This document shows positions 3,001-19,442 of a DNA stretch of 20,000 nt, in pieces (position 1 is the first letter of the stretch; every line of letters begins with the position of its first letter). A program made the translations under genes and the position numbers. The DNA comes from an uncultured virus (IMG/VR IMGVR_UViG_3300016476_001224). Taxonomy: Duplodnaviria > Heunggongvirae > Uroviricota > Caudoviricetes. Under the pieces are notes generated by a model. The model made no database searches, was not told the DNA's origin, and was given only the letters and a program-made list of their open reading frames with translations. The stretch lies in IMG/VR virus record IMGVR_UViG_3300016476_001224, one strand, 5' to 3'.

Positions 3001-5657
3001 GACAAATAAATCTTGTAAGTAAGTATTTATATATGTATATGGATTTTAATGATAATATCATTACTGAATTGATGAGAACTCAGGATCCTATTACTATTAC
3101 AAACCTAAATAAGTTTACTGATTTAGATGAATTAAGTAATAAATTTAATACACATCCAATATCACATGGTTATGAATTAACATATGTAGATAATACAATT
3201 ACTATAGATAGTAAATTCAACAACATAACATCTTATTATAATTTAGCAACTCAAGTAATTGCCAATGGTGTTGATAATGCTGGTTTACCTTTAACAATAA
3301 CAAATGAAATGGTATATACTGATGGATTTTTAAAATTTGGATATACACCAACTTATAATCTATTAGATTATTTAGAAGGACTAAATGATACTACAAACCT
3401 AGCAACTGCTAAATTTAGAGCAGATAAAGAGTATTATGCAATGCCACATTACAAAGCTATTCCTTTAGAAGGTTCATTAAGTGGCAACTCATCTGGTCTT
3501 TACTTTAATTATAATGGTATTTTTGGTACAAATAGTTCAAATCAAAAACCAAGTAATATATTACAATTTGGTTCAGATTTAAAATTAGAATGGGAAAGTA
3601 TATTCTTAAATACATTTGTTGATATAGTAATGTATTCTGATTCTGATTACTATAATCCTACCAATGGTTCAACATTTAGCACTGAAAGGTTGTTAGTAAC
3701 AAAGAAATACTATAATAGTACATATGATACTTATGATATTGAGTTTGGAAAAAGTATAAATTTCCCTATTGGTAGTCAACCTAGATTTATTGATATTTTA
3801 TCAAGAAGAACATTATTACAAATAAGTGAGGATTTACAAGAATTAAATAATATTCAAAGACCAAGATTTGTAAATAAATCAATTATTGATAATAATGATA
3901 ACAACTTCTATAATTATGATAGAACTACAAGTTATAAAATATCTACTGATTCATACACTAAGATTTTATTATCAGATGTTGATACAATTAAAGAATTAAC
4001 TGCAGTTATTTATACTGATTATAAGAATGAATTAGCAATGAATATAACAAGACTTGCTAGAGAATATAATATTAAGATAGCTGATACAGATTCATATAAT
4101 GGTAATTTACTTATTATATGTGGTGAAAAACATGAATTGAAAAATGGAGATGGTGTTGTATTAGAATTTAATGGTGGTACTTATTCTTCACAAGTATTAA
4201 ATCAACAATACTTTGGTTATCATACTGTCAATGTTGTTGATGACTATAAAGTATGGATAGATATTGATTATGTTAATAACACTATTGTTAATGATACAGG
4301 ATATTTGAAATACACTAAGAGTGATCCTTTCTTTAATTATCAACCAGTTGATATAATTGATGTAGGTGTTAATAAAAAAGGTAAAATTGCAATAGAATTG
4401 AATATTGACAATTTAAAATTAACTAATGATGTTTATAGTTTAGTTAATGTAGATTACAACAAATATAGATTTAGATTAATTGATGGATTAAACATTGAAA
4501 CATTATCACTTAAATATCCTTGGATATTAGAAGCAGAGGTTTCTGGTGCCTTATTAGGACTTGACACAAATGGTTTAGTTTGGTATAAAGGTTATTGGGA
4601 ATGTGGTAGATGGTTTGGTGGTACTTGGATATCAGGTACTTGGAAGTCAGGAGACTGGTATGCTGGTATATGGAATTCTAAAAAGATAACAGATAATTTA
4701 ATATCAGTTGAAGTAGATAATAGTGTATCAGATACTATACAATCAACTTGGTTTGGTGGTAGATGGTATGATGGTACTTGGAATAATGGTACTTGGGTAG
4801 ATGGTAGATGGTATGGTGGTACTTGGAATGCAGGTGACTGGTATAAAGGTATATGGAATGATGGTACTTGGAATAATGGTATTTTCTCAGGTGGTGTTTG
4901 GGTACTTGGTACCTGGAATGGTGGTGTATTTAATTGTGATAATGAACCTTCTTACTGGATTGATGGTAAGTGGAATGGTGGTGACTTTGAAAATGGTATT
5001 TGGTATAATGGTATTTTTGAAGAGAAAAATTCACTTTCAAGATTTGGAACAAAAGCTTACAATAGTAGAACTGCAAATTGGAAATCTGGTAAATGGTTAA
5101 GTGGTAGTTTCTATTCAAGATTAATTACAGATAATAGTGGAGTTCCAGTAACTTCAATATCTCATAAATATTCAATTTGGAAAACAGGTATTTGGTATAC
5201 AGGTGATTGGTATGGTGGTATTTCATATAATATGGATTTTCAATCAGGAAACTGGTATGGTGGTATATTAGAAGATATACAAATTATTGGCATTTCCTAT
5301 AATACTTCTAATCCTGTGGATAGTTATATTACACTAAATGGTGAGTTTGAGTTTAATATTAGTGATGATATACATATTTTAAATACATTTGGAACTACAA
5401 GTAGTATTGAAGGTAAATATGAACTTATAAAATGTAAAACAGATACTATAAATAAGAAAACTAAACTTTATATTAGTATTCCTGATGGCTATAATACATC
5501 TAATGATGATAATGAAACAGGATTAAGAGTAGTTAGTAGATTTAGAAGTGCCAATTGGAAATCAGGTATTTGGACTAATGGTATCTATGAAACTGGACTT
5601 TGGGAAGGTGGTATTTGGTATAATGGTTTATTCAAAGATGGTGCAAATTGGATGTAA
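3..5657 (+). CDS. Very large mosaic virion structural protein (putative tail/baseplate/fibre-associated), 5'-truncated by the window
   Basis: The frame is open from position 3 (FDYLKQELVSTRYYSKCLSG...), so the TTG at 249 is not the true start. Contains a phage tail-fibre-type motif (VDVAT...IIDGVKLLNGHRVLVKDQ...SENGIY), BNR/Ycf48-like propeller repeats (WICGDDGTLLK, GVVVGELNTILITNDGGLNW), a proprotein-convertase P-domain-like segment (IEVTINLSN...LLVNLRSPNGNVINL...GNWELYI) and a C-terminal WxxGx repeat. Confidence 0.7.
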   Translation, partial: FDYLKQELVSTRYYSKCLSGATYLPINNVDNIYDILGEYETRNWYIDSSGSQYSYTAIPQNASPINGITSNNYYTKYLSEYGLTLKNLFTPDRLIKDSINYLYVDVATIEEINLSSKYTNLIIDGVKLLNGHRVLVKDQISTETLPFDTDPNTYFKGNYTLVQDYGATIEYSYYNSENGIYVFNNGYLTKTDDLSLYEDCIRYSVSVKLGTINTQKQFHLSRLLNGYYPTSSLNEPVEFKEKHNWLLRNRVDYNNLFEINYYDVLKHGSQTYTINSTTYSIPERTIAVGEFGVILNTQGGISNIIPNKYKVNLRSITQTELYYWICGDDGTLLKVRKHDFTIEKIELNIIKNLKSVSFFNNLKGVVVGELNTILITNDGGLNWNSIIVDDFESYYYNKVLFLTQDKIYIIGNTGVFIELEEDISGWSAYKRRISKFIDDYEEYLLVDNINDIIYTNINWHLSYNYGTQSITDQKELLLLVTDNGKVIANDLNSTTKFDFLYLEFQTQYGNINNIIQQGTSSIFYFSGDNGILKFDITNFNTIGDNIYSNKISGPDAANLSELSVNRLFDYNSNDLLICGNTSLLQTSTYSTPLNFNILDSTFESRLKSKMLFVDYDVASKLNFFTDAGDYRLPSSTSFNLVTSSDDITYSNNHYYLMNPNISGNLISTINVDSQSVNPNNIEVTINLSNPVGISHLLVNLRSPNGNVINLKRVNSGTGTTLANVTFSTSTEYNYFRNSLAPYTSHTYQMDKILSFNQFARFAILENVEPEFFNFGYNANTNNLVDLLDENGGFYGNWELYIEWTSISIFSRPSLPITYPNGTLMGWDLTFVYSRPNEIDLNCLSFEPLVYGPTAPSFMTQSETNWLTYWKDRQKTFEYYSVNPADKNSKVEISTDFCKAVSSTRYIYSITNQLSDISRLAPSLVDLTSNRFIGGSVSISSPNQLYDIYFYGYLMIVRVDRNYPVKVGDVISLTSSVVDSQFVVNRVETLRNPTHLGPILRQINLVSKYLYMYMDFNDNIITELMRTQDPITITNLNKFTDLDELSNKFNTHPISHGYELTYVDNTITIDSKFNNITSYYNLATQVIANGVDNAGLPLTITNEMVYTDGFLKFGYTPTYNLLDYLEGLNDTTNLATAKFRADKEYYAMPHYKAIPLEGSLSGNSSGLYFNYNGIFGTNSSNQKPSNILQFGSDLKLEWESIFLNTFVDIVMYSDSDYYNPTNGSTFSTERLLVTKKYYNSTYDTYDIEFGKSINFPIGSQPRFIDILSRRTLLQISEDLQELNNIQRPRFVNKSIIDNNDNNFYNYDRTTSYKISTDSYTKILLSDVDTIKELTAVIYTDYKNELAMNITRLAREYNIKIADTDSYNGNLLIICGEKHELKNGDGVVLEFNGGTYSSQVLNQQYFGYHTVNVVDDYKVWIDIDYVNNTIVNDTGYLKYTKSDPFFNYQPVDIIDVGVNKKGKIAIELNIDNLKLTNDVYSLVNVDYNKYRFRLIDGLNIETLSLKYPWILEAEVSGALLGLDTNGLVWYKGYWECGRWFGGTWISGTWKSGDWYAGIWNSKKITDNLISVEVDNSVSDTIQSTWFGGRWYDGTWNNGTWVDGRWYGGTWNAGDWYKGIWNDGTWNNGIFSGGVWVLGTWNGGVFNCDNEPSYWIDGKWNGGDFENGIWYNGIFEEKNSLSRFGTKAYNSRTANWKSGKWLSGSFYSRLITDNSGVPVTSISHKYSIWKTGIWYTGDWYGGISYNMDFQSGNWYGGILEDIQIIGISYNTSNPVDSYITLNGEFEFNISDDIHILNTFGTTSSIEGKYELIKCKTDTINKKTKLYISIPDGYNTSNDDNETGLRVVSRFRSANWKSGIWTNGIYETGLWEGGIWYNGLFKDGANWM
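4581..5654 (+). repeat. Coding W-x-x-G-x pentapeptide repeat (15-bp period) in several blocks
   Basis: WYKGY WECGR WFGGT WISGT WKSGD WYAGI ... WFGGR WYDGT WNNGT WVDGR WYGGT WNAGD WYKGI WNDGT WNNGI ... WKSGI WTNGI YETGL WEGGI WYNGL; DNA units such as tggaataatggtact. Confidence 0.9.
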
Positions 5658-6073: not shown

Positions 6074-6331
6074 ATGAGATACTTAGAGGGTTATAAAAGT
6101 TTTTTTTATACTGATGATGATTTACCTAATCAAGAAATGCTTGATTGGGTAGAAGAGTATAAATATAATAATTCACATATTGAATTATCATCAAAGTTTA
6201 CACACATGAGTGATGATAATTACTATAGTGATATAAATACTATGAGAGATGAATTTTTGAAAAAATTCCATGATGAATTATTAGGTCTATCATATACTCA
6301 AACTATTGATGTATTTAACTCTTGTTTATAA
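6074..6331 (+). CDS. Hypothetical acidic protein (85 aa)
   Basis: Starts 2 nt after the previous stop; N-terminus MRYLEGYKSF is a weak variant of the MKYLKxFE motif; 3' end overlaps the convergent HNH gene by 17 nt. Confidence 0.6.
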   Translation: MRYLEGYKSFFYTDDDLPNQEMLDWVEEYKYNNSHIELSSKFTHMSDDNYYSDINTMRDEFLKKFHDELLGLSYTQTIDVFNSCL

Positions 6332-7340
6332 AATCATATTCATTTAATTGACTTTTCTTACTATTTATAATTCTTTTAGTTATACATAAATTGGATATAT
6401 CTGAAATAACACTAGTATCTAAATTATTTATAAATCCATAAAAACAAGAAATTTTATGGTCTATTGATGGATAATTATTATCATTTTTATTTAGATTGAA
6501 ATTATCTTTAATATATTCATTATCATAATAATCATAACCATTCCATTCACTAAATAACTTTTCTCTTAAAAGGTCTGTTTCATACCTAACTTTCCTTCTA
6601 TAAATTCTAAATAAATCTAATTTATATTTATCTCCATTAAAACTCCATTCTTTTTCTAAACTTTTATAAATTATGTTATTCTTTATACCAACTTGTATTT
6701 CTTTATTACCAAATGGTGATATATGACCATATTTCTCTAAATTACTTTCTTGTATCTTCTTTTTAATTTCTGGTATATGAAATGAATATGATGCCCCATA
6801 TTTATTAAACATACCTTTCTTTTTCAATTCATTATTATCAATAGTTGATAAGAAAGTAAAATATTCACCACTTTCTTTCTTATTTTTAATATTTTCTTTT
6901 ATTTTAATTGAATTATTTTTCTTAAAACCATCAGTTTGTGTAAATAAACTACCATATTTATCTATTTGTGTTTTATTTGATTTATCTCTAAATTTCTTTG
7001 ATGACATCCAATTACTTTGTCTTTCTTTTAACTCTGGAAGTTGTGTTATATATTCAACACCATATTTTTCAGAGTTTGTTTTTTTCCTTTTAATACTGGA
7101 ACATTTTTTACAAGAGTAGAAACCACCTCTATCAAAATTTTTATTATACTTATCAAATGATAAATTATTTTCACATTTACATATCTCACATATAGCAATT
7201 ACTATATTTTTAGATCTTTTAGGCATTGTTGATACATCTACTAATATAATATCACCTACATTACAATTATAATTTTTATCATTATAGTATTTTTTATTTC
7301 TTGTAGTTATTTCAACTTTAGACACATTATTTTTAACCAT
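6315..7340 (-). CDS. Free-standing HNH-type homing endonuclease-like protein with zinc ribbon and (E/D/N)KYG repeats
   Basis: N-terminal CEIC...CKKC; four KYG repeats (TNSEKYGVEY, TQIDKYGSLF, MFNKYGASY, SNLEKYGHIS); C-terminal YPSIDHKIS...ISNLCITKRIINSKK matching the HNH DH...NL...N pattern; Lys-rich; the only credible minus-strand gene. Confidence 0.7.
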   Translation of the reverse strand: MVKNNVSKVEITTRNKKYYNDKNYNCNVGDIILVDVSTMPKRSKNIVIAICEICKCENNLSFDKYNKNFDRGGFYSCKKCSSIKRKKTNSEKYGVEYITQLPELKERQSNWMSSKKFRDKSNKTQIDKYGSLFTQTDGFKKNNSIKIKENIKNKKESGEYFTFLSTIDNNELKKKGMFNKYGASYSFHIPEIKKKIQESNLEKYGHISPFGNKEIQVGIKNNIIYKSLEKEWSFNGDKYKLDLFRIYRRKVRYETDLLREKLFSEWNGYDYYDNEYIKDNFNLNKNDNNYPSIDHKISCFYGFINNLDTSVISDISNLCITKRIINSKKSQLNEYDFINKS

Positions 7341-11249: not shown

Positions 11250-12854
11250 ATGTATAGATATGATAGTTTTTTAAGACCCTTAACAGTCTCAGATAAGAAT
11301 ATTAAAATATTAGACAATTCTAATATAATTAAATATACCATTGATCCATTTTCAATAATTAATATTTCTGATGATAATAACCTAATAAAAATAAGTTTAA
11401 AATCCTTAAAAACCATAAAAATTGATTTTAGTACAAAAAATGAGGCACTAATTGCTTTAGAAAAACTACAAGAACAAATAGACTATTTGACCAATAAAAT
11501 TCCAACACAGGTAGATAAAGAAATAAAAAAATATGTACAAAATATTTTTGAACAAGTTTCTATTATTGTTGGTCCAACAGGTCCTACTGGGGNNNNNNNN
11601 NNNNNNNNNNNNNNNNNNNNNNNNNNNNNNNNNNNNNNNNNNNNNNNNNNNNNNNNNNNNNNNNNNNNNNNNNNNNNNNNNNNNNNNNATGGTTTAATAG
11701 GTCCAACAGGACCAATTGGTCCAACAGGACCAATTGGTCCAACAGGATTAGGAATAGAAGGAACACAATATATTTTAGTTTCTGCAAATGGTACTGATTT
11801 AGAGAATGCTTTACGGTTACAAGCTGCATATGATCAAGCAAAAACAATGTCACCTACTGCAAGTAATAGAATAACTATAATTGCAGCACCTGGTAGCTAT
11901 AATTTTGAAATACAACCATTTATTTTGGATACTGAATATATTGACTTAGTATCTTTAGATGGTAACAGAAGTGTTATATTAAATTCTACACAATCAGGTA
12001 ATATTTACATAGTTTCTAACAATGTTTTTGTAAAAGGAATTGAAACTAAAACATTACCATTTATTATAGAAAATGATTTAGATAAAATAAAGATTGTAAA
12101 TTGTAAGGGAGGTGATTATTCTTTTAATTGCTCTATTTTATCTGGTACATTTATAGATTGTGAAGGTGGTAATTATTCATTTTATGGTAATGATGTATCT
12201 GGTACATTTGTTAAATGTAAGGGAGGTAATTATTCATTTGGATATAATGCATCTGGTGATTTCATTGAATGTGAAGGAGAAAGTTACTCTTTTGGAGGAG
12301 GTGATTTCTATCTAAGTATAAATGGTATAGCATCTGGTAATTTTACCAATTGTATAGGTGGAGTACATTCCTTTGGTGGTTATTCAAGTATTGCATCAGG
12401 TGTATTTAATAATTGTAAAGGTGCATATGGTTCTTTTGGTGGTGGTGAAGGTGAGGCATCAGGTACATTTAATAATTGTCAAGGTAATGACTCATCATTT
12501 GGTGGATATGGTATAGCATCAGGTATATTTAATAATTGCACCGGTGATTGGTATTCCTTTGGTGGTGGTGCTGGTAATTATGGTATAGCATCTGGTAATT
12601 TTACCAATTGTATAGGTGGATTAAGTTCCTTTGGTGGTTATATTTCATCTGGTATTTTTACTAATTGTATTGGTGGTGCTAGTTCATTTTTTTCTACAAA
12701 TAGTGATATAGGGATATATAATTATTGTATAGCTGATGGTGGATTTGATAATAGTGGAATTAAATACTTTTGTAAACTAACATATGGTACTTTTCCAAAT
12801 AGAGGAAGAAGAATTTATTGTATAGATGGTAATAATAATACTAATAATAATTAA
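11250..12854 (+). CDS. Collagen-repeat tail fibre/spike-like protein with C-terminal Cys-ladder beta-helix repeats (contains assembly gap)
   Basis: GPT/GPI triplets on both sides of the N gap, in the same frame; about ten copies of SGxFxxCxGxxxSF in the C-terminal half. True length is uncertain because of the gap. Confidence 0.7.
   Translation: MYRYDSFLRPLTVSDKNIKILDNSNIIKYTIDPFSIINISDDNNLIKISLKSLKTIKIDFSTKNEALIALEKLQEQIDYLTNKIPTQVDKEIKKYVQNIFEQVSIIVGPTGPTGXXXXXXXXXXXXXXXXXXXXXXXXXXXXXXXXXGLIGPTGPIGPTGPIGPTGLGIEGTQYILVSANGTDLENALRLQAAYDQAKTMSPTASNRITIIAAPGSYNFEIQPFILDTEYIDLVSLDGNRSVILNSTQSGNIYIVSNNVFVKGIETKTLPFIIENDLDKIKIVNCKGGDYSFNCSILSGTFIDCEGGNYSFYGNDVSGTFVKCKGGNYSFGYNASGDFIECEGESYSFGGGDFYLSINGIASGNFTNCIGGVHSFGGYSSIASGVFNNCKGAYGSFGGGEGEASGTFNNCQGNDSSFGGYGIASGIFNNCTGDWYSFGGGAGNYGIASGNFTNCIGGLSSFGGYISSGIFTNCIGGASSFFSTNSDIGIYNYCIADGGFDNSGIKYFCKLTYGTFPNRGRRIYCIDGNNNTNNN
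11571..11747 (+). repeat. Collagen-coding tandem repeat (18-bp unit ggtccaacaggaccaatt) flanking an assembly gap
   Basis: Units at 11700-11717 and 11718-11735, partial unit at 11736-11747; ggtccaacaggtcctactgg precedes the gap. Confidence 0.85.
11593..11688. other. Scaffold gap (96 N)
   Basis: Run of N inside the collagen repeat, consistent with a repeat-induced assembly break. Confidence 0.98.
12322..12641 (+). repeat. 62-bp intragenic direct repeat (12322-12383 and 12580-12641)
   Basis: atggtatagcatctggtaattttaccaattgtataggtgga-[gtacat or ttaagt]-tcctttggtggttat; 59/62 identical; offset 258 nt (in frame). Confidence 0.9.
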
Positions 12855-15008: not shown

Positions 15009-15014
15009 ACATAT

Positions 15015-15049
15015 AAAAAGTTTTCTAATATAAATAGAAAACTTTTTTT
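15015..15049 (+). terminator. 13-bp hairpin ending in a T-run (possible intrinsic terminator) with TATAAATA across its loop
   Basis: aaaaagttttcta (15015-15027) pairs with tagaaaacttttt (15035-15047); loop atataaa; T7 at 15043-15049 directly before ATG 15050; TATAAATA at 15029-15036. Confidence 0.55.
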
Positions 15050-15499
15050 ATGAAGCAAACAAACAAAGAAGAAATACTAAAGAAATGGGATTCTGTACTT
15101 AATAATATGGGTATCTCAGAAGAAAAAAAAGAGTGGATGTCTCAGTATGCAGAAATGTATAAAGCAAATGAAATAGTTTCAGCACCTGATGAGATAATAA
15201 CTTCACAACCTGATGTTCTTTTACCAATTGCAATGAAAATTGCTGCACAAACAATAGGACATGATTTAGTATCAGTACAACCTTTAGGTGGTGGTAATTC
15301 TGGTGATGAAATGAATAAAATTAAACAAGAAGTTAAGAAAGAAAATCGTGATAGAAAAATTGATGCACTTGTTGAAGGTAAAGAGTTCAATGAGATGAAA
15401 CCTGAGGACCACCCAGATTATATCAAACCAACTGGCCCAAGTGGAAAATTATTCTATTTAGATTATGTATATGGTTCAACTAATTCAACTACAATATAA
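15050..15499 (+). CDS. Short major-capsid-protein (gp23-like) N-terminal fragment paralogue with an internal insertion
   Basis: ILKKWDSVL resembles the gp23-family N-terminal L-x-x-KW-x-x-x-L. LLPIAMKIAAQTIGHDLVSVQPL-[about 48 aa]-GPSGKLFYLDYVYG aligns by eye with T4 gp23 VMGMVRRAIPNLIAFDICGVQPMNSPTGQVFALRAVYG. Only 149 aa long. Confidence 0.65.
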   Translation: MKQTNKEEILKKWDSVLNNMGISEEKKEWMSQYAEMYKANEIVSAPDEIITSQPDVLLPIAMKIAAQTIGHDLVSVQPLGGGNSGDEMNKIKQEVKKENRDRKIDALVEGKEFNEMKPEDHPDYIKPTGPSGKLFYLDYVYGSTNSTTI

Positions 15500-15669
15500 T
15501 GAGTGTTTATAAGAAACCTGGTGTATATACAACATATACCAATAAGACATATATCAGAACACCTAAGAATTTTTTACGTAAAATTAAGATTAGAAGAATA
15601 TTAGGTTTACCACCTAAGAATGAACCTATATTTATAAGTCCTGGAATTTATACCTCAGAATATGATTAG
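15499..15669 (+). CDS. 56-aa mini-protein with two tail-sheath N-terminus-like motifs (not in the ORF track)
   Basis: TAATG-coupled start; translates MSVYKKPGVYTTYTNKTYIRTPKNFLRKIKIRRILGLPPKNEPIFISPGIYTSEYD*; fills the gap between neighbours exactly and overlaps the next ATG. Confidence 0.65.
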   Translation: MSVYKKPGVYTTYTNKTYIRTPKNFLRKIKIRRILGLPPKNEPIFISPGIYTSEYD

Positions 15670-16057
15670 AATAATATTTTTATTGATAACAACATTTGTT
15701 TACTCTCAACAGAAAGTTGTTTATTATAACTATGGATATGATGGTATGGAAAGTATAAGTAGAGTTAGGGGTTCTGATTCAATGGTGGTTTATTCTAATT
15801 ATAAATCAAGACCTTTGATAAGAAGAGAAGTTTGTGATAGTGTTTTAAAAGATTATAAAAGATTAAAAAGTGGTCCTTATGTAGTTTGTATAAAAGAAGC
15901 TAAAGTAATTGGTAAGTTAGAAATAATAAGAAAATATAATTTAGTATCAATTAATTATTATTATGAAAGAGTAGAATATTCTGATGGTATAATAGAAGTA
16001 TATAAAAGTCCTGTAATAAAACCTAAAAAGAAAAGTAAAAAGAGGGTCATGAGGTAG
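15662..16057 (+). CDS. Putative exported protein with Sec signal peptide and basic C-terminus
   Basis: MIRIIFLLITTFVYS-QQKV: short basic/hydrophobic leader with a V-x-S cleavage site followed by Gln; ends KPKKKSKKRVMR. Confidence 0.6.
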   Translation: MIRIIFLLITTFVYSQQKVVYYNYGYDGMESISRVRGSDSMVVYSNYKSRPLIRREVCDSVLKDYKRLKSGPYVVCIKEAKVIGKLEIIRKYNLVSINYYYERVEYSDGIIEVYKSPVIKPKKKSKKRVMR

Positions 16058-16067
16058 TAATATATAC
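16058..16067 (+). promoter_or_regulatory. Putative late promoter TAATATATAC
   Basis: TAATATATA-cctt-ATG (16071). Confidence 0.6.
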
Positions 16068-16070
16068 CTT

Positions 16071-16403
16071 ATGATAAATATTTACTTAGTTTGTGCTGAA
16101 ATAAATGGTGAGAAATTACATAAGATAGGATATACAAAAAGAACCATAGAAGAAAGAATTAGAGAGTTTAAAACAGGCAATGCATCTGATTTTTATATTA
16201 TAGATTCTTTCAGATCACAATGGGGTACAAAAATTGAAGCTCTTCTTCATAAGACTTTTAAAGATAAAAAAGTAAGAGGTGAGTGGTTTAATTTAACTGA
16301 TGAAGATTTATTATCTTTTCAGGAAAGATGTCAAATATTACATGACAACTTTGAAATAATTTCAAAAAATAATACATACTACTTAGATAGAGGTAGTTTT
16401 TAA
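16071..16403 (+). CDS. T5orf172/MUG113-type GIY-YIG nuclease domain protein
   Basis: IYLV...KIGYTKRTIEERIREFKTGN...IEALLHKTFKDKKVRGEWFNL is the characteristic pattern of this family. Confidence 0.85.
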   Translation: MINIYLVCAEINGEKLHKIGYTKRTIEERIREFKTGNASDFYIIDSFRSQWGTKIEALLHKTFKDKKVRGEWFNLTDEDLLSFQERCQILHDNFEIISKNNTYYLDRGSF

Positions 16404-16419
16404 AAAATAAAATAAAAAT

Positions 16420-16689
16420 ATGGATTTAAAAGAACATTCAATTAGACAATATATGTCTAATATAGATTTCAAAAATGATGATTGGAAAGTATCAAAAATT
16501 TTAGAAGATATGCGTAGATTCTTAGGTGAAGAACCATCAATAGATGTAGTCTATAAAAAAGATGTTATGATTAATGAAGTAACTGGTACTGCAAAAGAAT
16601 TTGTTGATGTAGATAAAATTCAAATTGTTTTTACTGGAACTGACAATAGATTTCATAAAATTGAATTTATAGTTGGAGAAAAAATATAA
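16420..16689 (+). CDS. Hypothetical protein (89 aa)
   Basis: Clean ORF in the gene string with an A-rich leader; no recognisable motif. Confidence 0.7.
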   Translation: MDLKEHSIRQYMSNIDFKNDDWKVSKILEDMRRFLGEEPSIDVVYKKDVMINEVTGTAKEFVDVDKIQIVFTGTDNRFHKIEFIVGEKI

Positions 16690-16698
16690 TTATAAAAA

Positions 16699-16923
16699 AT
16701 GAAATTAGAAGATTATTATTTAGATCTTGATAAAGTAACTTTACTTAAAACAGAAGATGAAAGACAAAACATACACAACTATTATAGAGATATGATGTAT
16801 GCAGTTGCTGAGAATGCACCTGATAGAGCTAAAAGTATTATGTTTACTTTATTAAAAGCAGGTTACTTAAAAAATGTAACACAAGAAGATAGAGATGAAA
16901 AAATTGAATATATTTTAGGATAA
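16699..16923 (+). CDS. Hypothetical protein (74 aa) ending in RDEKIEYILG
   Basis: Clean ORF; C-terminal RxxKIxxIL motif at 16891-16917. Confidence 0.7.
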   Translation: MKLEDYYLDLDKVTLLKTEDERQNIHNYYRDMMYAVAENAPDRAKSIMFTLLKAGYLKNVTQEDRDEKIEYILG

Positions 16924-17222
16924 TGAAGTTTGATATAATTGAATATTTAGGTAAAATTGAAGATGGTGTTTTAGTAATTATAACATTAAACTATGAAGAT
17001 GAATACTATGAGTCAACATTTTACTATAAAAATCAATTTGTAACTTTAACAGTTGATGAGAAACTTGAAGAAATTCTTGGTTGTGAAATTGAAAGGTGGA
17101 AAGGTTATAATAAATTGGTTTTAGAAATAGTGGAAAAAACAGTACCTTACAATGAGATTATAAATACATTAGATGAAATAGATTTAGATTATTACTTTGG
17201 TGAAGCAGAGGAAGAAGAATAA
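16923..17222 (+). CDS. Acidic hypothetical protein (99 aa)
   Basis: TAATG-coupled to the previous gene; followed by a terminator. Confidence 0.7.
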   Translation: MKFDIIEYLGKIEDGVLVIITLNYEDEYYESTFYYKNQFVTLTVDEKLEEILGCEIERWKGYNKLVLEIVEKTVPYNEIINTLDEIDLDYYFGEAEEEE

Positions 17223-17246
17223 AGTCAACTTAGGTTGACTTTTTTT
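17221..17246 (+). terminator. Rho-independent terminator
   Basis: aaagtcaac-ttag-gttgacttt stem-loop with T7 (17240-17246) immediately after the stop codon. Confidence 0.8.
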
Positions 17247-17275
17247 ATATAAAAAAGAAAATGTTAAACTAATAA

Positions 17276-18973
17276 ATGTTAATAAGTGAAATAGGAATTA
17301 GAGGTTACAAATCTTTTGGAAACAATGAACAAGTATTAAAATTAAATACTGAAAAAGGAGAATTAGTTCTTCTTGTAGGAAACAATGGTAATGGTAAATC
17401 ATCATTACTTGAATCCTTTGAATACTCACTTTATGGAAAAGTAAAGTCAGGTAAAGCAAAAAAATGGCATAAATTATCTTCCTTGCCAAACAGAATCAAT
17501 GGTGAATTATTGAACAGAATTAAATTTGTTTCAAATGGAACAGATGTAGAAGTACAAAGAGGTATAGGTCCAAGTGTACTAAACTTAATTGAAAATGGAA
17601 TACCTAATGAAAGAGCAGGTAAAGCCAATATTGATGATAAAATTGAAAAGTATATTGGATTGGATATTGAAACATTCAAATCATTTATATCAATGTCTAT
17701 TAATGACTTTAAAAACTTTATATCATTAACTAATGAAGAAAAACAATTACTTTTAGATAAGTTATTTAACTTAGAAGTAATCAACATATTAAATGGTATT
17801 CTTAAAGATATTAATAAGAATAACAAAATAAGATTAACCTCCTTAGAAACTGAGATAAGAACTTTAGAGGAATCAATTGATTCAATTAAAAGATCCATTG
17901 AAAAAGCAATTGAAAAAGAGAAAGAAAATCTACAACAAGAAATTGATACTCTTACTGATGAAATGAACTCTAAAAAGGATGAGTATAAACTTCTTAAAGA
18001 GAAAGTTGATAAAATCAAAGAAAAAGAAACTATACTTTCTGATGAGTTAGATATTGAGAAAAGACAATTAAGTTCTACTCAAAATGATATTAGAAATGTA
18101 CAAAGAGAGATTGACCTTTATGATTCAGGTAAATGTCCAACTTGTTCTACAGATTTCTTATCTGAACATTTTGTTACTTTAAGAAATTCTTTAGTTGAGA
18201 AGAAAAAATCACATGAAGATATATTAGAAGAAATACAAAATAATATAAATTCTATAAGAGCAAAACAAACTAAATTAAAAGAGATTGCAGATGGAACTAC
18301 AAAATCATTTAATGACTTGAACTATTTGCTTAAAAACTATAAAACTCAAATTGATACACTGACTAGAAAGAAAGGTTCTCAAATAAATGAATCTGTAAAT
18401 ACTCAAGAGTTTCAAAATACTATTGATGATTTAGAAGAGAAAAAATCATTAAGTCATGATAGTGCAGGAGTTTGTAAAGAAAAAGAATTATTCTATAAAG
18501 AGCTTAATAGAGTTTTAAGTGAAGATGGTGCAAAGAAATCAATTATTGCTGGTATTATTAAACCTATTAACCACTTCATAGCTGAAAACATTAAGAAAAT
18601 GGGATTACCGTTTGAGGTTAAGTTAGATGAGACATTTAGTTCAGAGATTAAAAGTTTAGGAAATGTAGTTGAACATGATTCTTTAAGTACTGGTGAATCT
18701 AAAAAAGTAAATATTGCTATTTTGATTGCTTACTTAAAACTAATCAGAACTAAAAAACACATCAATATTTTGTTCTTGGATGAAGTATTTTCATCTATTG
18801 ACATAGAAGGTATAGATTCTATATTATTGCTTCTTAAATCATTTGCAAATGACTATAACATCAATATATTTGTTGTTCACCATGCAATTTTAAATCAAGA
18901 AATGTTTGATAGAATAATTAAAATAAACAAAGAAGTATTCTCTTATATTGAAGAAGTAGAATATGAACACTAA
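17276..18973 (+). CDS. sbcC: SbcC/Rad50/T4 gp46-like recombination nuclease ATPase subunit
   Basis: GYKSFG N-terminus, Walker A GNNGNGKSS, long coiled coils around the zinc hook CPTC, signature LSTGE, Walker B/D-loop LFLDEVFSSID, H-loop VVHH. Confidence 0.95.
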   Translation: MLISEIGIRGYKSFGNNEQVLKLNTEKGELVLLVGNNGNGKSSLLESFEYSLYGKVKSGKAKKWHKLSSLPNRINGELLNRIKFVSNGTDVEVQRGIGPSVLNLIENGIPNERAGKANIDDKIEKYIGLDIETFKSFISMSINDFKNFISLTNEEKQLLLDKLFNLEVINILNGILKDINKNNKIRLTSLETEIRTLEESIDSIKRSIEKAIEKEKENLQQEIDTLTDEMNSKKDEYKLLKEKVDKIKEKETILSDELDIEKRQLSSTQNDIRNVQREIDLYDSGKCPTCSTDFLSEHFVTLRNSLVEKKKSHEDILEEIQNNINSIRAKQTKLKEIADGTTKSFNDLNYLLKNYKTQIDTLTRKKGSQINESVNTQEFQNTIDDLEEKKSLSHDSAGVCKEKELFYKELNRVLSEDGAKKSIIAGIIKPINHFIAENIKKMGLPFEVKLDETFSSEIKSLGNVVEHDSLSTGESKKVNIAILIAYLKLIRTKKHINILFLDEVFSSIDIEGIDSILLLLKSFANDYNINIFVVHHAILNQEMFDRIIKINKEVFSYIEEVEYEH

Positions 18974-18987
18974 ACTTTTTTAAAATT

Positions 18988-19215
18988 ATGAATAATAGTA
19001 TAACATCAGGTCCAACAGGTATAAGTGGTGGACCTGGTTTAGTTGGAATAAAAGGAATAGTACCAGGTTATTATAACAATGCCATTGGTCTTACTGGACC
19101 AATAGGTAATAATGGACATGTAGGCATAGCAGGAGTTCCTGGTATACCAGATAAGATATGGAAAAGAATAATTAGAATAGAGAAAATGTTTAAAAAATGG
19201 GATTTAGAACTTTAG
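18988..19215 (+). CDS. 75-aa collagen-like mini-protein with basic amphipathic C-terminus
   Basis: Two G-X-Y runs (GPT GIS GGP GLV GIK GIV; GLT GPI GNN GHV GIA GVP GIP) followed by KIWKRIIRIEKMFKK. Confidence 0.65.
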   Translation: MNNSITSGPTGISGGPGLVGIKGIVPGYYNNAIGLTGPIGNNGHVGIAGVPGIPDKIWKRIIRIEKMFKKWDLEL

Positions 19216-19442
19216 ATATACCTTGGTATGATAGAACATTGAATAATTGTCCAGAATGTGGATCAGATAAAATATCACATTCTTTTTTTATTCCAATTAA
19301 ACCAACAAATGAACCACCAAGAAAACCAGAAGAAAAATGTAATAGTTGTGGTTTTGCATCAGAATATAAATTTGAATTACTAAATAAAATAAATAGAAGA
19401 AACAATAAAATAGATAAAATTTTAGACAAATATGGGATTTAA
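19197..19442 (+). CDS. Zinc-ribbon mini-protein ending in RNNKIDKIL
   Basis: CPECGS...CNSCGF; C-terminal RxxKIxxIL motif at 19398-19424. Confidence 0.7.
   Translation: MGFRTLDIPWYDRTLNNCPECGSDKISHSFFIPIKPTNEPPRKPEEKCNSCGFASEYKFELLNKINRRNNKIDKILDKYGI

What the first reader, a model, noticed from the sequence alone, without database searches (positions are those of the whole stretch)
15050..19442. Candidate new system: mini-proteins made of virion-protein fragments joined to a shared R-x-x-K-I-x-x-I-L tag (structural mimics/decoys)
Seen: three small genes each pair a piece resembling a different virion protein with the same short amphipathic motif. These are a capsid N-terminal fragment + RDRKIDALV (15347-15373), sheath N-terminal motifs + RKIKIRRIL (15577-15603), and collagen fibre triplets + RIIRIEKMF (19165-19191). 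The first two genes are adjacent and translationally coupled. Known: structural proteins trigger several bacterial defences (T4 gp23 Gol peptide activates Lit; capsid protein activates CapRel; Avs proteins sense portal/terminase), and satellites use structural paralogues to disturb assembly. Inference (untested): these fragments act as decoys or sponges for host sensors, or as dominant-negative inhibitors of competing phages' assembly, with the tag docking them on a common partner. I know of no description of such a tagged-mimic family but could not search the literature.
Basis: partly seen in the sequence, partly recalled or inferred. Interest (0 to 1): 0.85.

Follow-up and report, generated by a model that had tools for sequence, protein, structure and literature searches.

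The report
Megaphage mini-proteins sharing a helix tag
A giant bacteriophage encodes small conserved proteins built from pieces of its capsid and tail-sheath proteins, and they carry a short helical tag that this phage lineage attaches to more than a tenth of all its proteins, for a purpose still unknown.

Summary
The window is from a 26% G+C megaphage related to LR745206, LR756502 and LR756504 (Mahaphage clade).

- **ORF A (15050-15499)** is a truncated paralogue of the gp23-type major capsid protein (MCP). It matches MCP residues 1 to about 125, with an inserted helix carrying RDRKIDALV.
- **ORF B (15499-15669)** has two copies of the sheath N-terminal PGVY motif flanking RKIKIRRIL.
- **ORF C (18988-19215)** has two short Gly-X-Y runs plus a weak tag. 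It is rare.
- **Conservation.** A has 153 homologues and B has 19. Both have dN/dS of 0.2-0.5.
- **The tag** (R-[DEK]-x-K-[IL]-x-x-[IL]-[LF]) is a protein-level motif near the C-terminus. It occurs on 123 of 1015 proteins in LR745206 and 115 of 1035 in LR756502; shuffles give about 0. It is absent from 100-kb samples of three other huge phages with 25-34% G+C.
- **Tag carriers.** Their bodies are mutually unrelated proteins without Pfam matches. They lie mostly behind host-type promoter motifs.
- **Other fragment minis.** Relatives also encode minis from MCP, portal, a scaffold-like protein and a Clp ATPase.
- **No general link.** Tagged proteins are not enriched overall for being fragments of larger proteins.

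Function is untested. My best guess is microProtein-like regulators of their parent assemblies, with the tag as a handle for one shared factor. The decoy idea is neither supported nor excluded.

The parts
15050..15499 (+). ORF A, 149 aa: truncated paralogue of the major capsid protein (MCP) with an inserted tag helix
   Evidence: blastp against the MCPs of two relatives, E 9e-19 and 5e-18. 153 homologues of 141-162 aa. dN/dS 0.23-0.53.
15056..15283 (+). MCP-like N-terminal part of A (aa 3-78): propeptide-like helices and the LLPIAMKIAAQTIGxDLVSVQP segment
   Evidence: Alignment to MCP residues 5-109. phrog_138 major head protein, E 0.0014.
15347..15373 (+). Tag in A (RDRKIDALV), inside a predicted helix spanning aa 85-109
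   Evidence: 17.3 bits, 0 of 2000 shuffles reach it. ENRxRKI is invariant in 47 aligned homologues. Helix pLDDT 72-85. The 3 differences in a diverged relative are all synonymous.
15434..15481 (+). GPSGKLFYLDYVYGST, resembling the MCP strand PGPKIDLLYIDFxYDD. A therefore looks like MCP 1 to about 125 with a roughly 45-aa insert.
   Evidence: The LR756502 orthologue aligns over aa 8-148 with MCP 8-129. For the window's own copy this match is by eye only.
15499..15669 (+). ORF B, 56 aa: sheath N-terminal motif, then tag, then sheath N-terminal motif. Its start overlaps A's stop (TAATG).
   Evidence: 19 homologues with PGVY, PKNxLRKIKIRRILGLPP and ISPG invariant. dN/dS 0.24-0.37.
15514..15531 (+). 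First sheath-like motif, KPGVYT
   Evidence: The sheath N-terminus (…KYKRPGIFIEEFDQS) ranks 1 of 967 and 1 of 985.
15577..15603 (+). Tag in B (RKIKIRRIL), inside a predicted helix spanning aa 23-35
   Evidence: 18.6 bits, 0 of 2000 shuffles reach it. Helix in the AlphaFold2 model.
15637..15666 (+). Second sheath-like motif, SPGIYTSEYD
   Evidence: Sheath ranks 1 of 967 and 2 of 985 for the last 14 residues.
16699..16923 (+). 74-aa ORF with a canonical C-terminal tag, RDEKIEYIL (16891-16917), one residue from the end
   Evidence: 22.7 bits, 0 of 2000 shuffles reach it. Orthologues in 3 of the 4 related loci read.
18988..19215 (+). ORF C, 75 aa: Gly-X-Y runs (19009-19056 and 19087-19143) and a weak tag RIIRIEKMF (19165-19191), 7 residues from the end
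   Evidence: Collagen E 0.0011, below cut-off. Tag 9.3 bits, shuffle P 0.0005. Cluster of 2 members. Present in contigs of two runs from another study. Absent from L003.
19197..19442 (+). 81-aa zinc-ribbon-like ORF with a canonical C-terminal tag, RNNKIDKIL (19398-19424)
   Evidence: 24.2 bits, 0 of 2000 shuffles reach it. The L003 orthologue keeps the tag.
15014..15049 (+). Inverted repeat AAAAGTTTTCTA / TAGAAAACTTTT with loop ATATAAA, followed by a T-run that ends at A's ATG
   Evidence: Read directly. Kept in L003 and L004. Its function was not tested.

Best explanation
SHOWN. The window belongs to a Mahaphage-type megaphage. In this lineage a short amphipathic helix, consensus (K-Q/S-E-hydrophobic)-R-[D/E/K]-x-K-[I/L]-[N/D/K]-x-[I/L]-[L/F], sits within 0-12 residues of the C-terminus of about one protein in nine. 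It is attached to more than 100 mutually unrelated bodies, mostly 50-150 aa, only 2 of the 108 scanned matching Pfam. It is selected at the amino-acid level.

ORFs A, B and C carry this tag, as do two more ORFs in the flagged region. A is a truncated paralogue of the major capsid protein (MCP): the N-terminal propeptide-like helices, the N-arm segment and the first strand, with the tag helix inserted. B is two copies of the sheath N-terminal strand motif around the tag. C is a short collagen-like stretch plus a weak tag. A and B are conserved and under purifying selection.

INFERRED (about 0.3 for the whole mechanism). These are microProtein-like regulators. Each keeps one inter-subunit contact element of an oligomeric machine. 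It would therefore bind the full-length parent, or the parent's partner, as a cap, competitor or assembly chaperone.

The tag would be a common handle read by one shared factor. My first candidate is the Clp-type unfoldase and ClpP encoded by the tag-bearing phages, with the tag acting as a degron or delivery handle that removes or hands over tagged proteins on schedule. That the fragments bind their parents, and what reads the tag, are both untested.
For: Tag reality:
- A strict pattern gives 62 hits in 1015 LR745206 proteins, 52 of them within 12 aa of the C-end. 200 residue shuffles average 1.9 and 0.26; reversed sequences give 4 and 0; N-termini give 0.
- LR756502 gives 54 and 38, against 1.8 and 0.2 in 100 shuffles.
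- Scoring matrix at 14 bits or more: 123 of 1015 and 115 of 1035 proteins. Cross-trained: 110 of 1035 and 133 of 1015, with shuffles at 0.

Protein level rather than DNA level:
- Of 119 DNA-matrix hits at 16 bits or more, 113 are in the sense coding frame, 2 are intergenic and 0 are antisense.
- Codon choice at the Arg, Lys and first Ile positions matches genome usage (Arg AGA 0.71 against 0.76; Ile identical); the last Ile and the Leu lean to ATA and TTA but still use several codons.
- In a diverged relative the 3 differences inside A's 9 tag codons are all synonymous, including CGT to AGA.

Not a composition effect: 0 of 146, 0 of 127 and 0 of 210 genes carry the tag in 100-kb samples of LR756500, LR756501 and Lak-A1 (25-34% G+C). 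LR756504 has 21 of 219, in a variant form.

Modular: 112 of 114 tag-stripped bodies are singletons. Only 2 of 108 have Pfam hits.

Fragments:
- A against MCP.
- Further MCP-like minis in relatives.
- A portal fragment next to A and B in LR756502 (portal aa 277-335, E 5e-16).
- A mini made of scaffold-like repeats (E 1e-36).
- A mini holding a short stretch (aa 298-332) of the Clp ATPase.

Selection: dN/dS is 0.23-0.53 for A and 0.24-0.37 for B. 153 and 19 length-conserved homologues have the tag invariant.

Structure: the tag is the most confident helix in the AlphaFold2 models of A and B, and the fragment parts have low confidence. Low confidence fits folding on a partner but does not show it.

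Timing, by motif only: A orthologues and the MCP minis lie in units behind the AATATATA motif that also precedes the MCP, sheath and portal genes.

Clp: the ATPase and ClpP were both found only in the tag-bearing genomes among the five tested.
Against: - No binding, expression or stability data exist for any of these proteins.
- Tagged proteins as a class are not enriched for fragments, so tag and fragment may be unrelated features that merely co-occur.
- Most tagged genes lie behind host-type TAnnTTTG motifs (52 early against 14 late; 48 against 6), whereas the structural minis lie in late-type units. One role for the tag in both sets is an assumption.
- In A and B the tag is internal, unlike the typical C-terminal position, which does not fit a simple C-terminal degron.
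- The Clp correlation rests on 5 genomes, and the tag-bearing ones are close kin. LR756501 has the ATPase without tags in its sample. ClpP was not looked for in LR756502.
- Some 'tags' may be inherited from the parent protein. The helicase has an internal tag-like motif in the stretch that its mini matches, and the MCP spine helix ends in SKQIVAKIF, which resembles the F-type tag (by eye).
Confidence: 0.3

Rival explanations
1. One reading: the fragments are decoys or sponges. They occupy host immune sensors that recognise conserved capsid, portal or sheath epitopes without triggering them. The tag would tether them to a common partner.
For: The fragments cover conserved MCP segments, each picked up by the Pfam Gp23 profile or by the phage's own MCP: the N-terminal LLPIAMKIAAQTIG region, profile positions 102-163 and 164-194 (by my recalled mapping the E-loop and spine helix), and C-terminal strands. 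They also cover a conserved portal segment. Sensors for the MCP and other core virion proteins are described in passages of 10.64898/2026.01.04.697583. The minis fall in late-type units, so they would be made when the real proteins are made.
Against: No defence system or sensor was examined. Non-virion fragments (Clp ATPase, helicase) and more than 100 unrelated tagged proteins do not fit a sensor-decoy role. Searches found no published precedent for phage-encoded structural-fragment decoys. Very short pieces, such as 20 aa of sheath, are unlikely to reproduce a fold-level epitope.
Confidence: 0.12
2. Inter-phage weapons: dominant-negative fragments that poison capsid, portal or tail assembly of co-infecting or superinfecting related phages. 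The producer's own proteins would be diverged enough to escape.
For: The fragments retain inter-subunit contact elements (sheath N-terminal strand, MCP N-arm and C-terminal strands). At least 223 viral contigs carry MCPs 67-80% identical to that of LR745206, so close relatives that could co-infect are common. A GIY-YIG/T5orf172 gene, a type often involved in phage-phage competition (recalled), sits beside the minis in all 5 loci.
Against: The MCP N-terminus is nearly invariant across 32 relatives and A matches it well, so self-poisoning would be hard to avoid. A is a core, length-conserved gene in 153 relatives rather than a variable accessory gene.
Confidence: 0.12
3. The tag is a virion-targeting peptide, comparable to a scaffolding-protein C-terminal helix, the T4 capsid-targeting sequence or an encapsulin cargo-loading peptide. 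The minis would be minor head or tail assembly components or packaged proteins.
For: It is a short terminal peptide shared by many otherwise unrelated proteins, as for encapsulin cargo (recalled). The shell protein is of the gp23 family (HK97 fold, recalled). The structural minis lie in late-type units.
Against: Among tagged genes assigned to a promoter class, most lie behind host-type TAnnTTTG motifs rather than the motif that precedes virion genes (odds ratios 5.6 and 13, p 2e-9 and 2e-13). The 160-180 kb bin that holds the sheath gene has 0 tagged genes among 23, and the two bins around the MCP gene 2 each. More than 100 different packaged proteins would be unprecedented.
Confidence: 0.13
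4. No special function for the fragments: they are relics of duplication or of recombination driven by homing endonucleases. The 'tag' would be only the conserved last helix of a very old, hugely expanded small-protein family.
For: Homing-endonuclease-like genes are close by: 16071-16403 and 6315-7340 on the minus strand. C is rare and missing in relatives. There is no overall fragment enrichment among tagged proteins.
Against: dN/dS is well below 1 for A and B. A has 153 homologues of 141-162 aa, and its most conserved block is the tag region. B's tag is invariant in 20 sequences. Tag-stripped bodies show no detectable kinship, though extreme divergence cannot be excluded.
Confidence: 0.1
5. 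The motif is a nucleic-acid signal (promoter, terminator or coupling element) at gene ends that merely translates into a similar peptide.
For: It lies at gene 3' ends in tightly packed operons, and the sequence is A/T-rich.
Against: 113 of 119 DNA-matrix hits are in the sense coding frame, 2 are intergenic and 0 are antisense. Synonymous codons at the Arg, Lys and first Ile positions are used as in the rest of the genome. Flanking DNA is not conserved.
Confidence: 0.02

Closest known systems
microProteins (miPs) of plants and animals, such as LITTLE ZIPPER and Id proteins (recalled, not searched by name)
   Same: They are small proteins derived from part of a larger protein. They keep its interaction element and act by engaging the parent in non-productive complexes. 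A, B and the portal, MCP and Clp minis have that anatomy.
   Different: The known cases are eukaryotic transcription-factor regulators. Here the parents are viral capsid, portal, sheath and AAA+ machines. Binding is unproven, and the known cases have no shared extra tag.
Encapsulin cargo-loading peptides, the T4 capsid-targeting sequence and the scaffolding-protein C-terminal coat-binding helix (recalled)
   Same: A short terminal peptide shared by unrelated proteins serves as an address. The shell in those systems has an HK97-type fold.
   Different: Most tagged genes here are in early-type units away from virion genes. The number of carriers exceeds 100. The T4 sequence is N-terminal and is cleaved off.
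C-terminal recognition signals of AAA+ proteases and adaptor tethering peptides: ssrA, the MuA-type RRKKAI motif, the SspB XB peptide (recalled)
   Same: They are short basic-hydrophobic motifs close to the C-terminus that are read by one machine. The tag-bearing phages encode a Clp-type ATPase and ClpP.
   Different: This tag is a longer helix with conserved Arg and Lys, followed by 0-12 variable residues. It is internal in A and B. No recognition has been shown.
Poxvirus ankyrin/PRANC (F-box-like) and similar viral multigene families (recalled)
   Same: Many proteins with variable bodies share one C-terminal docking module.
   Different: PRANC is a domain of about 40 aa that docks on host SCF ligase. 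This is a 9-13-aa helix in a bacteriophage, with an unknown partner.
T4 gp23 Gol peptide and Lit; capsid sensing by CapRel and Avs
   Same: A includes the homologue of the highly conserved N-terminal gp23 segment. That this is the segment holding the Gol peptide in T4 is recalled, not tested.
   Different: Those are host sensors of full-length phage proteins. No phage-encoded fragment decoy of this kind turned up in searches, and nothing here links the minis to a sensor.

Membership tests
Gp23-type major capsid protein (Pfam PF07068 / phrog_138), tested on ORF A | Scores above the family's curated cut-off | tested here: not met
   14.3 bits against a cut-off of 24.4, E 0.026, profile positions 7-32 only. 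phrog_138 E 0.0014, positions 2-88 of 444.
Gp23-type major capsid protein, tested on ORF A | Homology to a bona fide MCP of the same lineage | tested here: met
   blastp E 9e-19 and 5e-18 to the MCPs of LR745206 and LR756502, which themselves score 88.7 and 95.9 bits on PF07068. The match covers only MCP residues 5 to about 125.
Gp23-type major capsid protein, tested on ORF A | Complete HK97-type fold (A and P domains, E-loop) | tested here: not met
   A has 149 aa and ends after the first strand. The AlphaFold2 model has four helices and no strands. A is a fragment paralogue, not a capsid protein.
Contractile-tail sheath (PF04984), tested on ORF B | Sheath domain present | tested here: not met
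   B has no Pfam or PHROG hit. Only the N-terminal PGVY-type motif, about 12-20 aa long and present twice, resembles the sheath.
Collagen triple-helix repeat (PF01391), tested on ORF C | Scores above cut-off, with a long uninterrupted Gly-X-Y run | tested here: not met
   19.2 bits against 27.2. There are two runs of 6 and 7 in-phase glycines separated by a break (read).
microProtein-type regulator | Small protein homologous to part of a larger oligomeric protein of the same genome | tested here: met
   A against MCP. Relatives' minis against MCP, portal, a scaffold-like protein and the Clp ATPase. For B the similarity is only a short motif.
microProtein-type regulator | Binds the parent or its partner and changes its activity | not testable with these tools
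   This needs binding and assembly assays.
C-terminal degron or unfoldase-recognition tag | Short motif at or near the C-terminus shared by many substrates | tested here: met
   Of 282 sites at 14 bits or more in 2050 proteins, 238 lie within 12 aa of the C-end. In A and B the motif is internal.
C-terminal degron or unfoldase-recognition tag | A cognate AAA+ protease is encoded or available | tested here: inconclusive
   The Clp-type ATPase (phrog_4871, E 4e-250) and ClpP are both present in LR745206 and LR756504. LR756501 has only the ATPase. LR756500 and Lak-A1 have only ClpP. This covers five genomes whose tag-bearing members are close kin.
C-terminal degron or unfoldase-recognition tag | The tag confers recognition or turnover | not testable with these tools
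   This needs stability and binding assays.
Capsid cargo-targeting peptide | Carriers are co-expressed with, or encoded beside, the shell genes | tested here: not met
   Among tagged genes assigned to a class, 52 are early-type against 14 late-type, and 48 against 6. Bins covering 160-220 kb, which hold the sheath and MCP genes, have 0, 2 and 2 tagged genes. The structural-fragment minis are the exception.

The most novel reading that the evidence does not exclude
This megaphage lineage runs its own protein-addressing code. One short C-terminal helix marks more than 100 otherwise unrelated proteins, mostly early ones. It also marks a set of late mini-proteins that imitate contact elements of the capsid, portal, sheath and a Clp machine. 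A single phage-encoded reader would act on all of them, for example an unfoldase/protease that clears the early proteome and times or caps virion assembly. That would be a virus-encoded degron or sorting system combined with structural-mimic regulators or decoys, with no described counterpart in phages.
Probability: 0.3. Interest if true: 0.9.

Novelty: new variant of a known kind. Interest (0 to 1): 0.78.

Why it matters
Megaphage genomes are mostly genes of unknown function. A single short motif that labels about one protein in nine gives a direct experimental handle on more than 100 of them at once. One can ask what binds the tag and what happens to a reporter that carries it.

If the tag is a degron or an address, it would show that a phage can run its own proteome-wide sorting or turnover code.

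Conserved mini-genes made from contact elements of capsid, portal and sheath would be the first phage examples, to my knowledge, of microProtein-like control of virion assembly. Alternatively they could be mimicry aimed at host sensors or rival phages. Either role is testable by co-expression.

The tag could also serve as a marker for assigning metagenomic contigs to this lineage.

Tried and rejected
- **Complex prediction, MCP alignment A3 with ORF A alignment A1:** no answer. It gives neither support for nor evidence against binding.
- **The look-up of sequencing runs:** no RNA holder is listed, so expression could not be assessed. X9 is only guessed to be RNA and was used only as a diverged DNA-like relative.
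- **The genome search 'own':** no genome is held for the window, so the window's own MCP and sheath could not be read. Relatives' proteins were used instead.
- **The search of earlier findings:** closed.
- **ESM Atlas on the tag-bearing tail of the 81-aa ORF:** best score 0.76, which is uninformative.
- **Pfam on 9 tagged proteins, then on 108:** essentially no hits.
- **IMG/VR search for ORF C:** no relatives.
- **Derivation of C from the window's collagen-like gene or from relatives' proteins:** no significant match.
- **The idea that SINKIF-type tags hide a TATAAATA late promoter, or any DNA signal:** rejected.
- **The idea that A is the 5' exon of a split or intron-interrupted capsid gene:** rejected. 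No MCP remainder lies downstream, and in relatives a complete MCP lies about 90 kb away.
- **The idea that stop-codon recoding joins the small ORFs:** rejected. A and B are in different frames, and long ORFs are open under code 11.
- **WWxFW as a second tag:** only 2 instances.
- **Literature searches (passages):** nothing found on this tag or on such mini-proteins.
- **Fold search of the A and B models:** not attempted, because mean pLDDT was 59 and 54.

Full report
**Where the window comes from.** The window has 22-31% G+C in 1-kb steps, about 26% overall. It encodes very large structural-looking proteins, a collagen-like fibre, a gp46/SbcC-like nuclease subunit (phrog_77, E 1.5e-72), a GIY-YIG/T5orf172 protein and a DnaJ-domain protein. 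ORF A finds full-length relatives in only two of 50,697 phage records: LR745206 (635 kb, 56% identity) and LR756502 (642 kb, 50%). Weaker N-terminal matches occur in LR756500, LR756501, LR756503 and LR756504. Passages of PMC7162821 place the 634, 636, 642 and 735-kb genomes in the 'Mahaphage' clade with predicted Bacteroidetes hosts. The region is syntenic in both records and in IMG/VR contigs L003 and L004, which are 74% and 79% identical to ORF A. No genome is held for the window. I therefore fetched the two complete relatives and called 1015 and 1035 ORFs with a simple longest-first rule. That rule can miss or miscall short genes.

**ORF A (15050-15499, 149 aa).**
- Pfam and PHROGs give only weak hits to the N-terminus of gp23-type capsid proteins.
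- Against the real major capsid proteins (MCPs) of the relatives the match is clear. Those MCPs have 560 and 571 aa and score 88.7 and 95.9 bits on PF07068. A's residues 3-78 align with MCP 5-109 (41% identity, E 9e-19). All five A orthologues tested hit the MCP N-terminus.
- The LR756502 orthologue aligns through to MCP residue 129. By eye, the window's GPSGKLFYLDYVYGST matches the MCP strand PGPKIDLLYIDFxYDD.
- A therefore looks like MCP residues 1 to about 125 with a roughly 45-residue insert that carries the motif.
- A has 153 homologues of 141-162 aa in the large protein collection. In 47 aligned sequences the most conserved block is E-N-R-x-R-K-I…K…E-M-K…H-P, which is the tag region.
- dN/dS is 0.23-0.53 against the two closest relatives, compared with 0.04 for gp46.
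- AlphaFold2 gives a poor model overall (mean pLDDT 59), but its most confident element is a helix over residues 85-109 that contains the tag.

**ORF B (15499-15669, 56 aa).**
- A's TAA overlaps B's ATG as TAATG, and B overlaps the next ORF by 8 nt.
- The sheath of the relatives (1295 and 1283 aa, PF04984) starts …KYKRPGIFIEEFDQS.
- Among the first 40 residues of all proteins, the sheath is the top match for B's first 22 residues: rank 1 of 967 and 1 of 985, for the window, L003 and L004 versions alike.
- The sheath ranks 1 and 2 for the window's last 14 residues. The LR756502 version ranks 6 and 4.
- PG[VI][YF] is rare (6 in 200,704 aa; 10 in 202,952 aa), yet B has it twice.
- In 20 sequences PGVY, PKNxLRKIKIRRILGLPP and ISPG are invariant. 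dN/dS is 0.24-0.37.
- The AlphaFold2 model shows the tag as a helix (residues 23-35) and little else with confidence.

**ORF C (18988-19215, 75 aa).**
- It has two in-phase glycine runs, at residues 8-23 and 34-52. Its Collagen hit is below threshold.
- It has no relatives in IMG/VR and belongs to a cluster of two sequences.
- It shows no significant similarity to proteins of the relatives or to the window's own collagen-like gene, and it is absent from L003.
- It is present almost unchanged in contigs of two runs from another study. In a more diverged relative the stretch holding C and most of the following 81-aa ORF (18955-19407) is replaced by 257 other letters.
- C is the weakest of the three ORFs.

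- A strict pattern, R-[DKERN]-x-[KIS]-I-x-x-[ILMV]-[FL], occurs 62 times in the 1015 LR745206 proteins, 52 times within 12 residues of the C-terminus. Residue shuffles average 1.9 and 0.26 (200 shuffles, maxima 7 and 2). Reversed sequences give 4 and 0, and N-termini give 0.
- LR756502 gives 54 and 38, against 1.8 and 0.2 in shuffles.
- An iteratively trained 15-column scoring matrix finds 282 sites at 14 bits or more in the 2050 proteins, 238 of them C-terminal. Shuffled proteins give 1 and 0.
- Per genome this is 123 of 1015 and 115 of 1035 proteins. Matrices trained on one genome and tested on the other give 110 of 1035 and 133 of 1015, with shuffles at 0. Orthology between the two genomes means these two tests are not fully independent.
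- The consensus is K-[QS]-E-hydrophobic-R-[DE]-x-K-[IL]-[ND]-x-[IL]-L. A basic variant, I-R-K-x-K-I-x-[NK]-I-F, occurs on very small proteins.

**The tag is a protein-level signal.**
- Arg, Lys and the first Ile of the tag use synonymous codons in genome-typical proportions; the last Ile and the Leu lean to ATA and TTA but still use several codons.
- Of 119 DNA-matrix hits at 16 bits or more, 113 are in the sense coding frame, 101 of them at C-termini. Two are intergenic and none is antisense.
- Flanking DNA is not conserved.
- In a diverged relative (X9 contigs), the three differences within A's nine tag codons are all synonymous: CGT to AGA, and GCA to GCT.

**The tag is not a composition effect.** In 100-kb samples, 0 of 146 genes of LR756500, 0 of 127 of LR756501 and 0 of 210 of Lak-A1 carry it (G+C 25%, 34% and 26%). 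LR756504 has 21 of 219, in a variant form ending …R-K-x-I-I-x-E-L-L at the very C-terminus.

**The window's own motifs, scored out of sample.** The matrix never saw the window. A's RDRKIDALV scores 17.3 bits and B's RKIKIRRIL scores 18.6; none of 2000 shuffles of either protein reaches these scores. C's RIIRIEKMF scores 9.3 (P 0.0005). Two more ORFs in the flagged interval carry textbook C-terminal tags: 16699-16923 (RDEKIEYIL, 22.7 bits) and 19197-19442 (RNNKIDKIL, 24.2 bits). The other 12 ORFs tested have none.

**What carries the tag.**
- Carriers are mostly 50-150 aa long.
- With the tag removed, 112 of 114 bodies are singletons at phmmer E below 1e-3.
- Only 2 of 108 have a Pfam hit at E below 0.001: DUF6011 and a Gp23 fragment.
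- Among genes whose unit could be assigned a motif class, tagged genes lie preferentially in units headed by TAnnTTTG. I recall this as the Bacteroidetes housekeeping promoter box. The alternative motif, AATATATA(C), precedes the MCP, sheath, portal and the window's large structural genes.
- In LR745206, 52 tagged genes are early-type and 14 late-type, against 201 and 304 for untagged genes (odds ratio 5.6, p 2e-9). In LR756502 the figures are 48 and 6 against 197 and 322 (odds ratio 13, p 2e-13).
- About half of all genes could not be classified. The 'early' and 'late' labels are inferences from motifs, not from expression data.

**Fragments of larger proteins.** In LR745206, small ORFs match parts of the MCP as follows:

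| Small ORF | MCP part matched | Evidence |
|---|---|---|
| A orthologue | residues 8-118 | |
| Two untagged ORFs (84 and 166 aa) | residues 48-100 | |
| 61-aa ORF ending RKESINKIF | Gp23 profile positions 102-163 | E 4.4e-4, |
| 62-aa ORF ending RKNSINKIF | Gp23 profile positions 164-194 | E 1.7e-3, |
| 243-aa tagged ORF | residues 344-530 | E 5e-16, |
| 75-aa tagged ORF | residues 494-539 | E 9e-8, |
| Neighbouring 50-aa tagged ORF | resembles the same region | by eye only |

LR756502 has counterparts. Other fragment minis in the relatives:
- An 83-aa tagged ORF repeats the motif of the 707-aa protein encoded just upstream of the MCP (E 1e-36).
- In LR756502 a 153-aa ORF right beside A and B matches portal residues 277-335 (E 5e-16). 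The portal was identified by phrog_213, E 4e-59.
- Minis that I read (from recall) as holding a UVR-type motif match a short stretch of a 701/707-aa Clp-type ATPase (phrog_4871). A tagged 90-aa ORF matches a helicase.

The claimed specificity is not. Tagged small proteins hit large proteins no more often than untagged ones: 7 of 150 against 21 of 651 (p 0.46), and 4 of 154 against 33 of 671 (p 0.28). For the MCP alone, 3 of 5 and 2 of 4 phmmer-level hits are tagged, against a background of about 19%. That is a modest excess on small numbers. Unlike most tagged genes, the A orthologues and the MCP minis fall in late-type units.

**Mechanism.**
- Shown: a modular, amino-acid-selected helix tag; conserved mini-genes built from contact elements of oligomeric machines; purifying selection on both.
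- Inferred: the minis act like microProteins, binding the parent or its partner through the retained element. The sheath N-terminal strand and the capsid N-arm take part in inter-subunit contacts in solved phage structures (recalled).
- Inferred: the tag is a handle for one shared reader. My first candidate is the phage Clp system. The ATPase and ClpP were found together only in the tag-bearing genomes among the five tested. This is a weak correlation, confounded by phylogeny, and ClpP was not looked for in LR756502.
- I put about 0.3 on this whole picture. The rivals are host-sensor decoys, anti-competitor poisons, virion-targeting peptides and functionless relics. Their evidence is set out in the rival explanations.
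- The DNA-signal idea is rejected.

**Novelty.** Four full-text searches and passages of two papers turned up no description of this tag or of such mini-proteins. The main text of PMC7162821 contains neither 'C-terminal' nor 'small proteins'; its supplements were not read. The closest concepts are microProteins, cargo-loading or capsid-targeting peptides, AAA+ protease recognition tags and viral families with a shared C-terminal docking module. All of these are recalled rather than tested.

Noticed in passing
window 15014-15049: An inverted repeat (AAAAGTTTTCTA … TAGAAAACTTTT) with the loop ATATAAA is followed by a T-run that ends at ORF A's ATG. It looks like a terminator for the upstream gene, and the stem-loop junction reads TATAAATA. 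It is kept in L003 and L004.
   Followed up: partly
window upstream of 5676, 7388, 10103, 13188, 16071; relatives upstream of MCP, sheath, portal: The motif AATATATA(C/G) lies 4-25 nt before the start codon of structural and large genes, and may be a late promoter. TAnnTTTG heads the units rich in tagged small genes.
   Followed up: partly
window 17394-17399, 15674-16047, 18955-19407 (contigs of run X9): A diverged relative has 1770 extra letters inside the gp46/SbcC-like gene. It lacks the 131-aa signal-peptide gene, and it replaces the stretch holding ORF C and most of the 81-aa ORF with 257 other letters.
   Followed up: no
window 16071-16403: The GIY-YIG/T5orf172 (MUG113) gene sits beside the mini-genes in all five loci and is strongly conserved (dN/dS about 0.09). 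That is unusual for a selfish homing endonuclease.
   Followed up: partly
window about 11550-11650, inside 11250-12854: A run of N (masked) lies within the collagen-like fibre gene. It was left unread.
   Followed up: no
LR745206 93266-93520 and 554784-555284; LR756502 80294-80539 and 542908-543423: Untagged ORFs of 81-171 aa share the segment SGMGAV..AQP..LAG…GSGD with MCP residues about 48-100. These may be further head proteins that use the same propeptide or processing region.
   Followed up: partly
LR756504 (L080, L081): A variant tag, E-[YH]-R-[KE]-x-I-I-x-[DE]-L-L, lies exactly at the C-terminus of 21 of 219 sampled genes.
   Followed up: partly
LR745206 482039-482179: A 46-aa ORF reads …RFITPGIWGYPDDFS…LRKSKIKKIFNVNKYSR. 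It may be a second sheath-N-terminus-like mini with a basic tag.
   Followed up: no
L001 11239-11433: A 64-aa ORF looks like ribosomal protein bS21. The name is recalled from its sequence pattern and was not tested.
   Followed up: no
LR745206 599388-599597 and LR756502 316849-317310: The motif KWWQFWK is shared by a tagged 69-aa ORF and the portal-fragment mini. Only two instances were found.
   Followed up: yes
window 3-5657; LR745206 175662-175955: The protein of more than 1880 aa has Gly-x-Trp-rich repeats near its C-terminus. A 97-aa ORF in the relative matches those repeats (E 5e-5), so it is another fragment-type mini, this one untagged.
   Followed up: no
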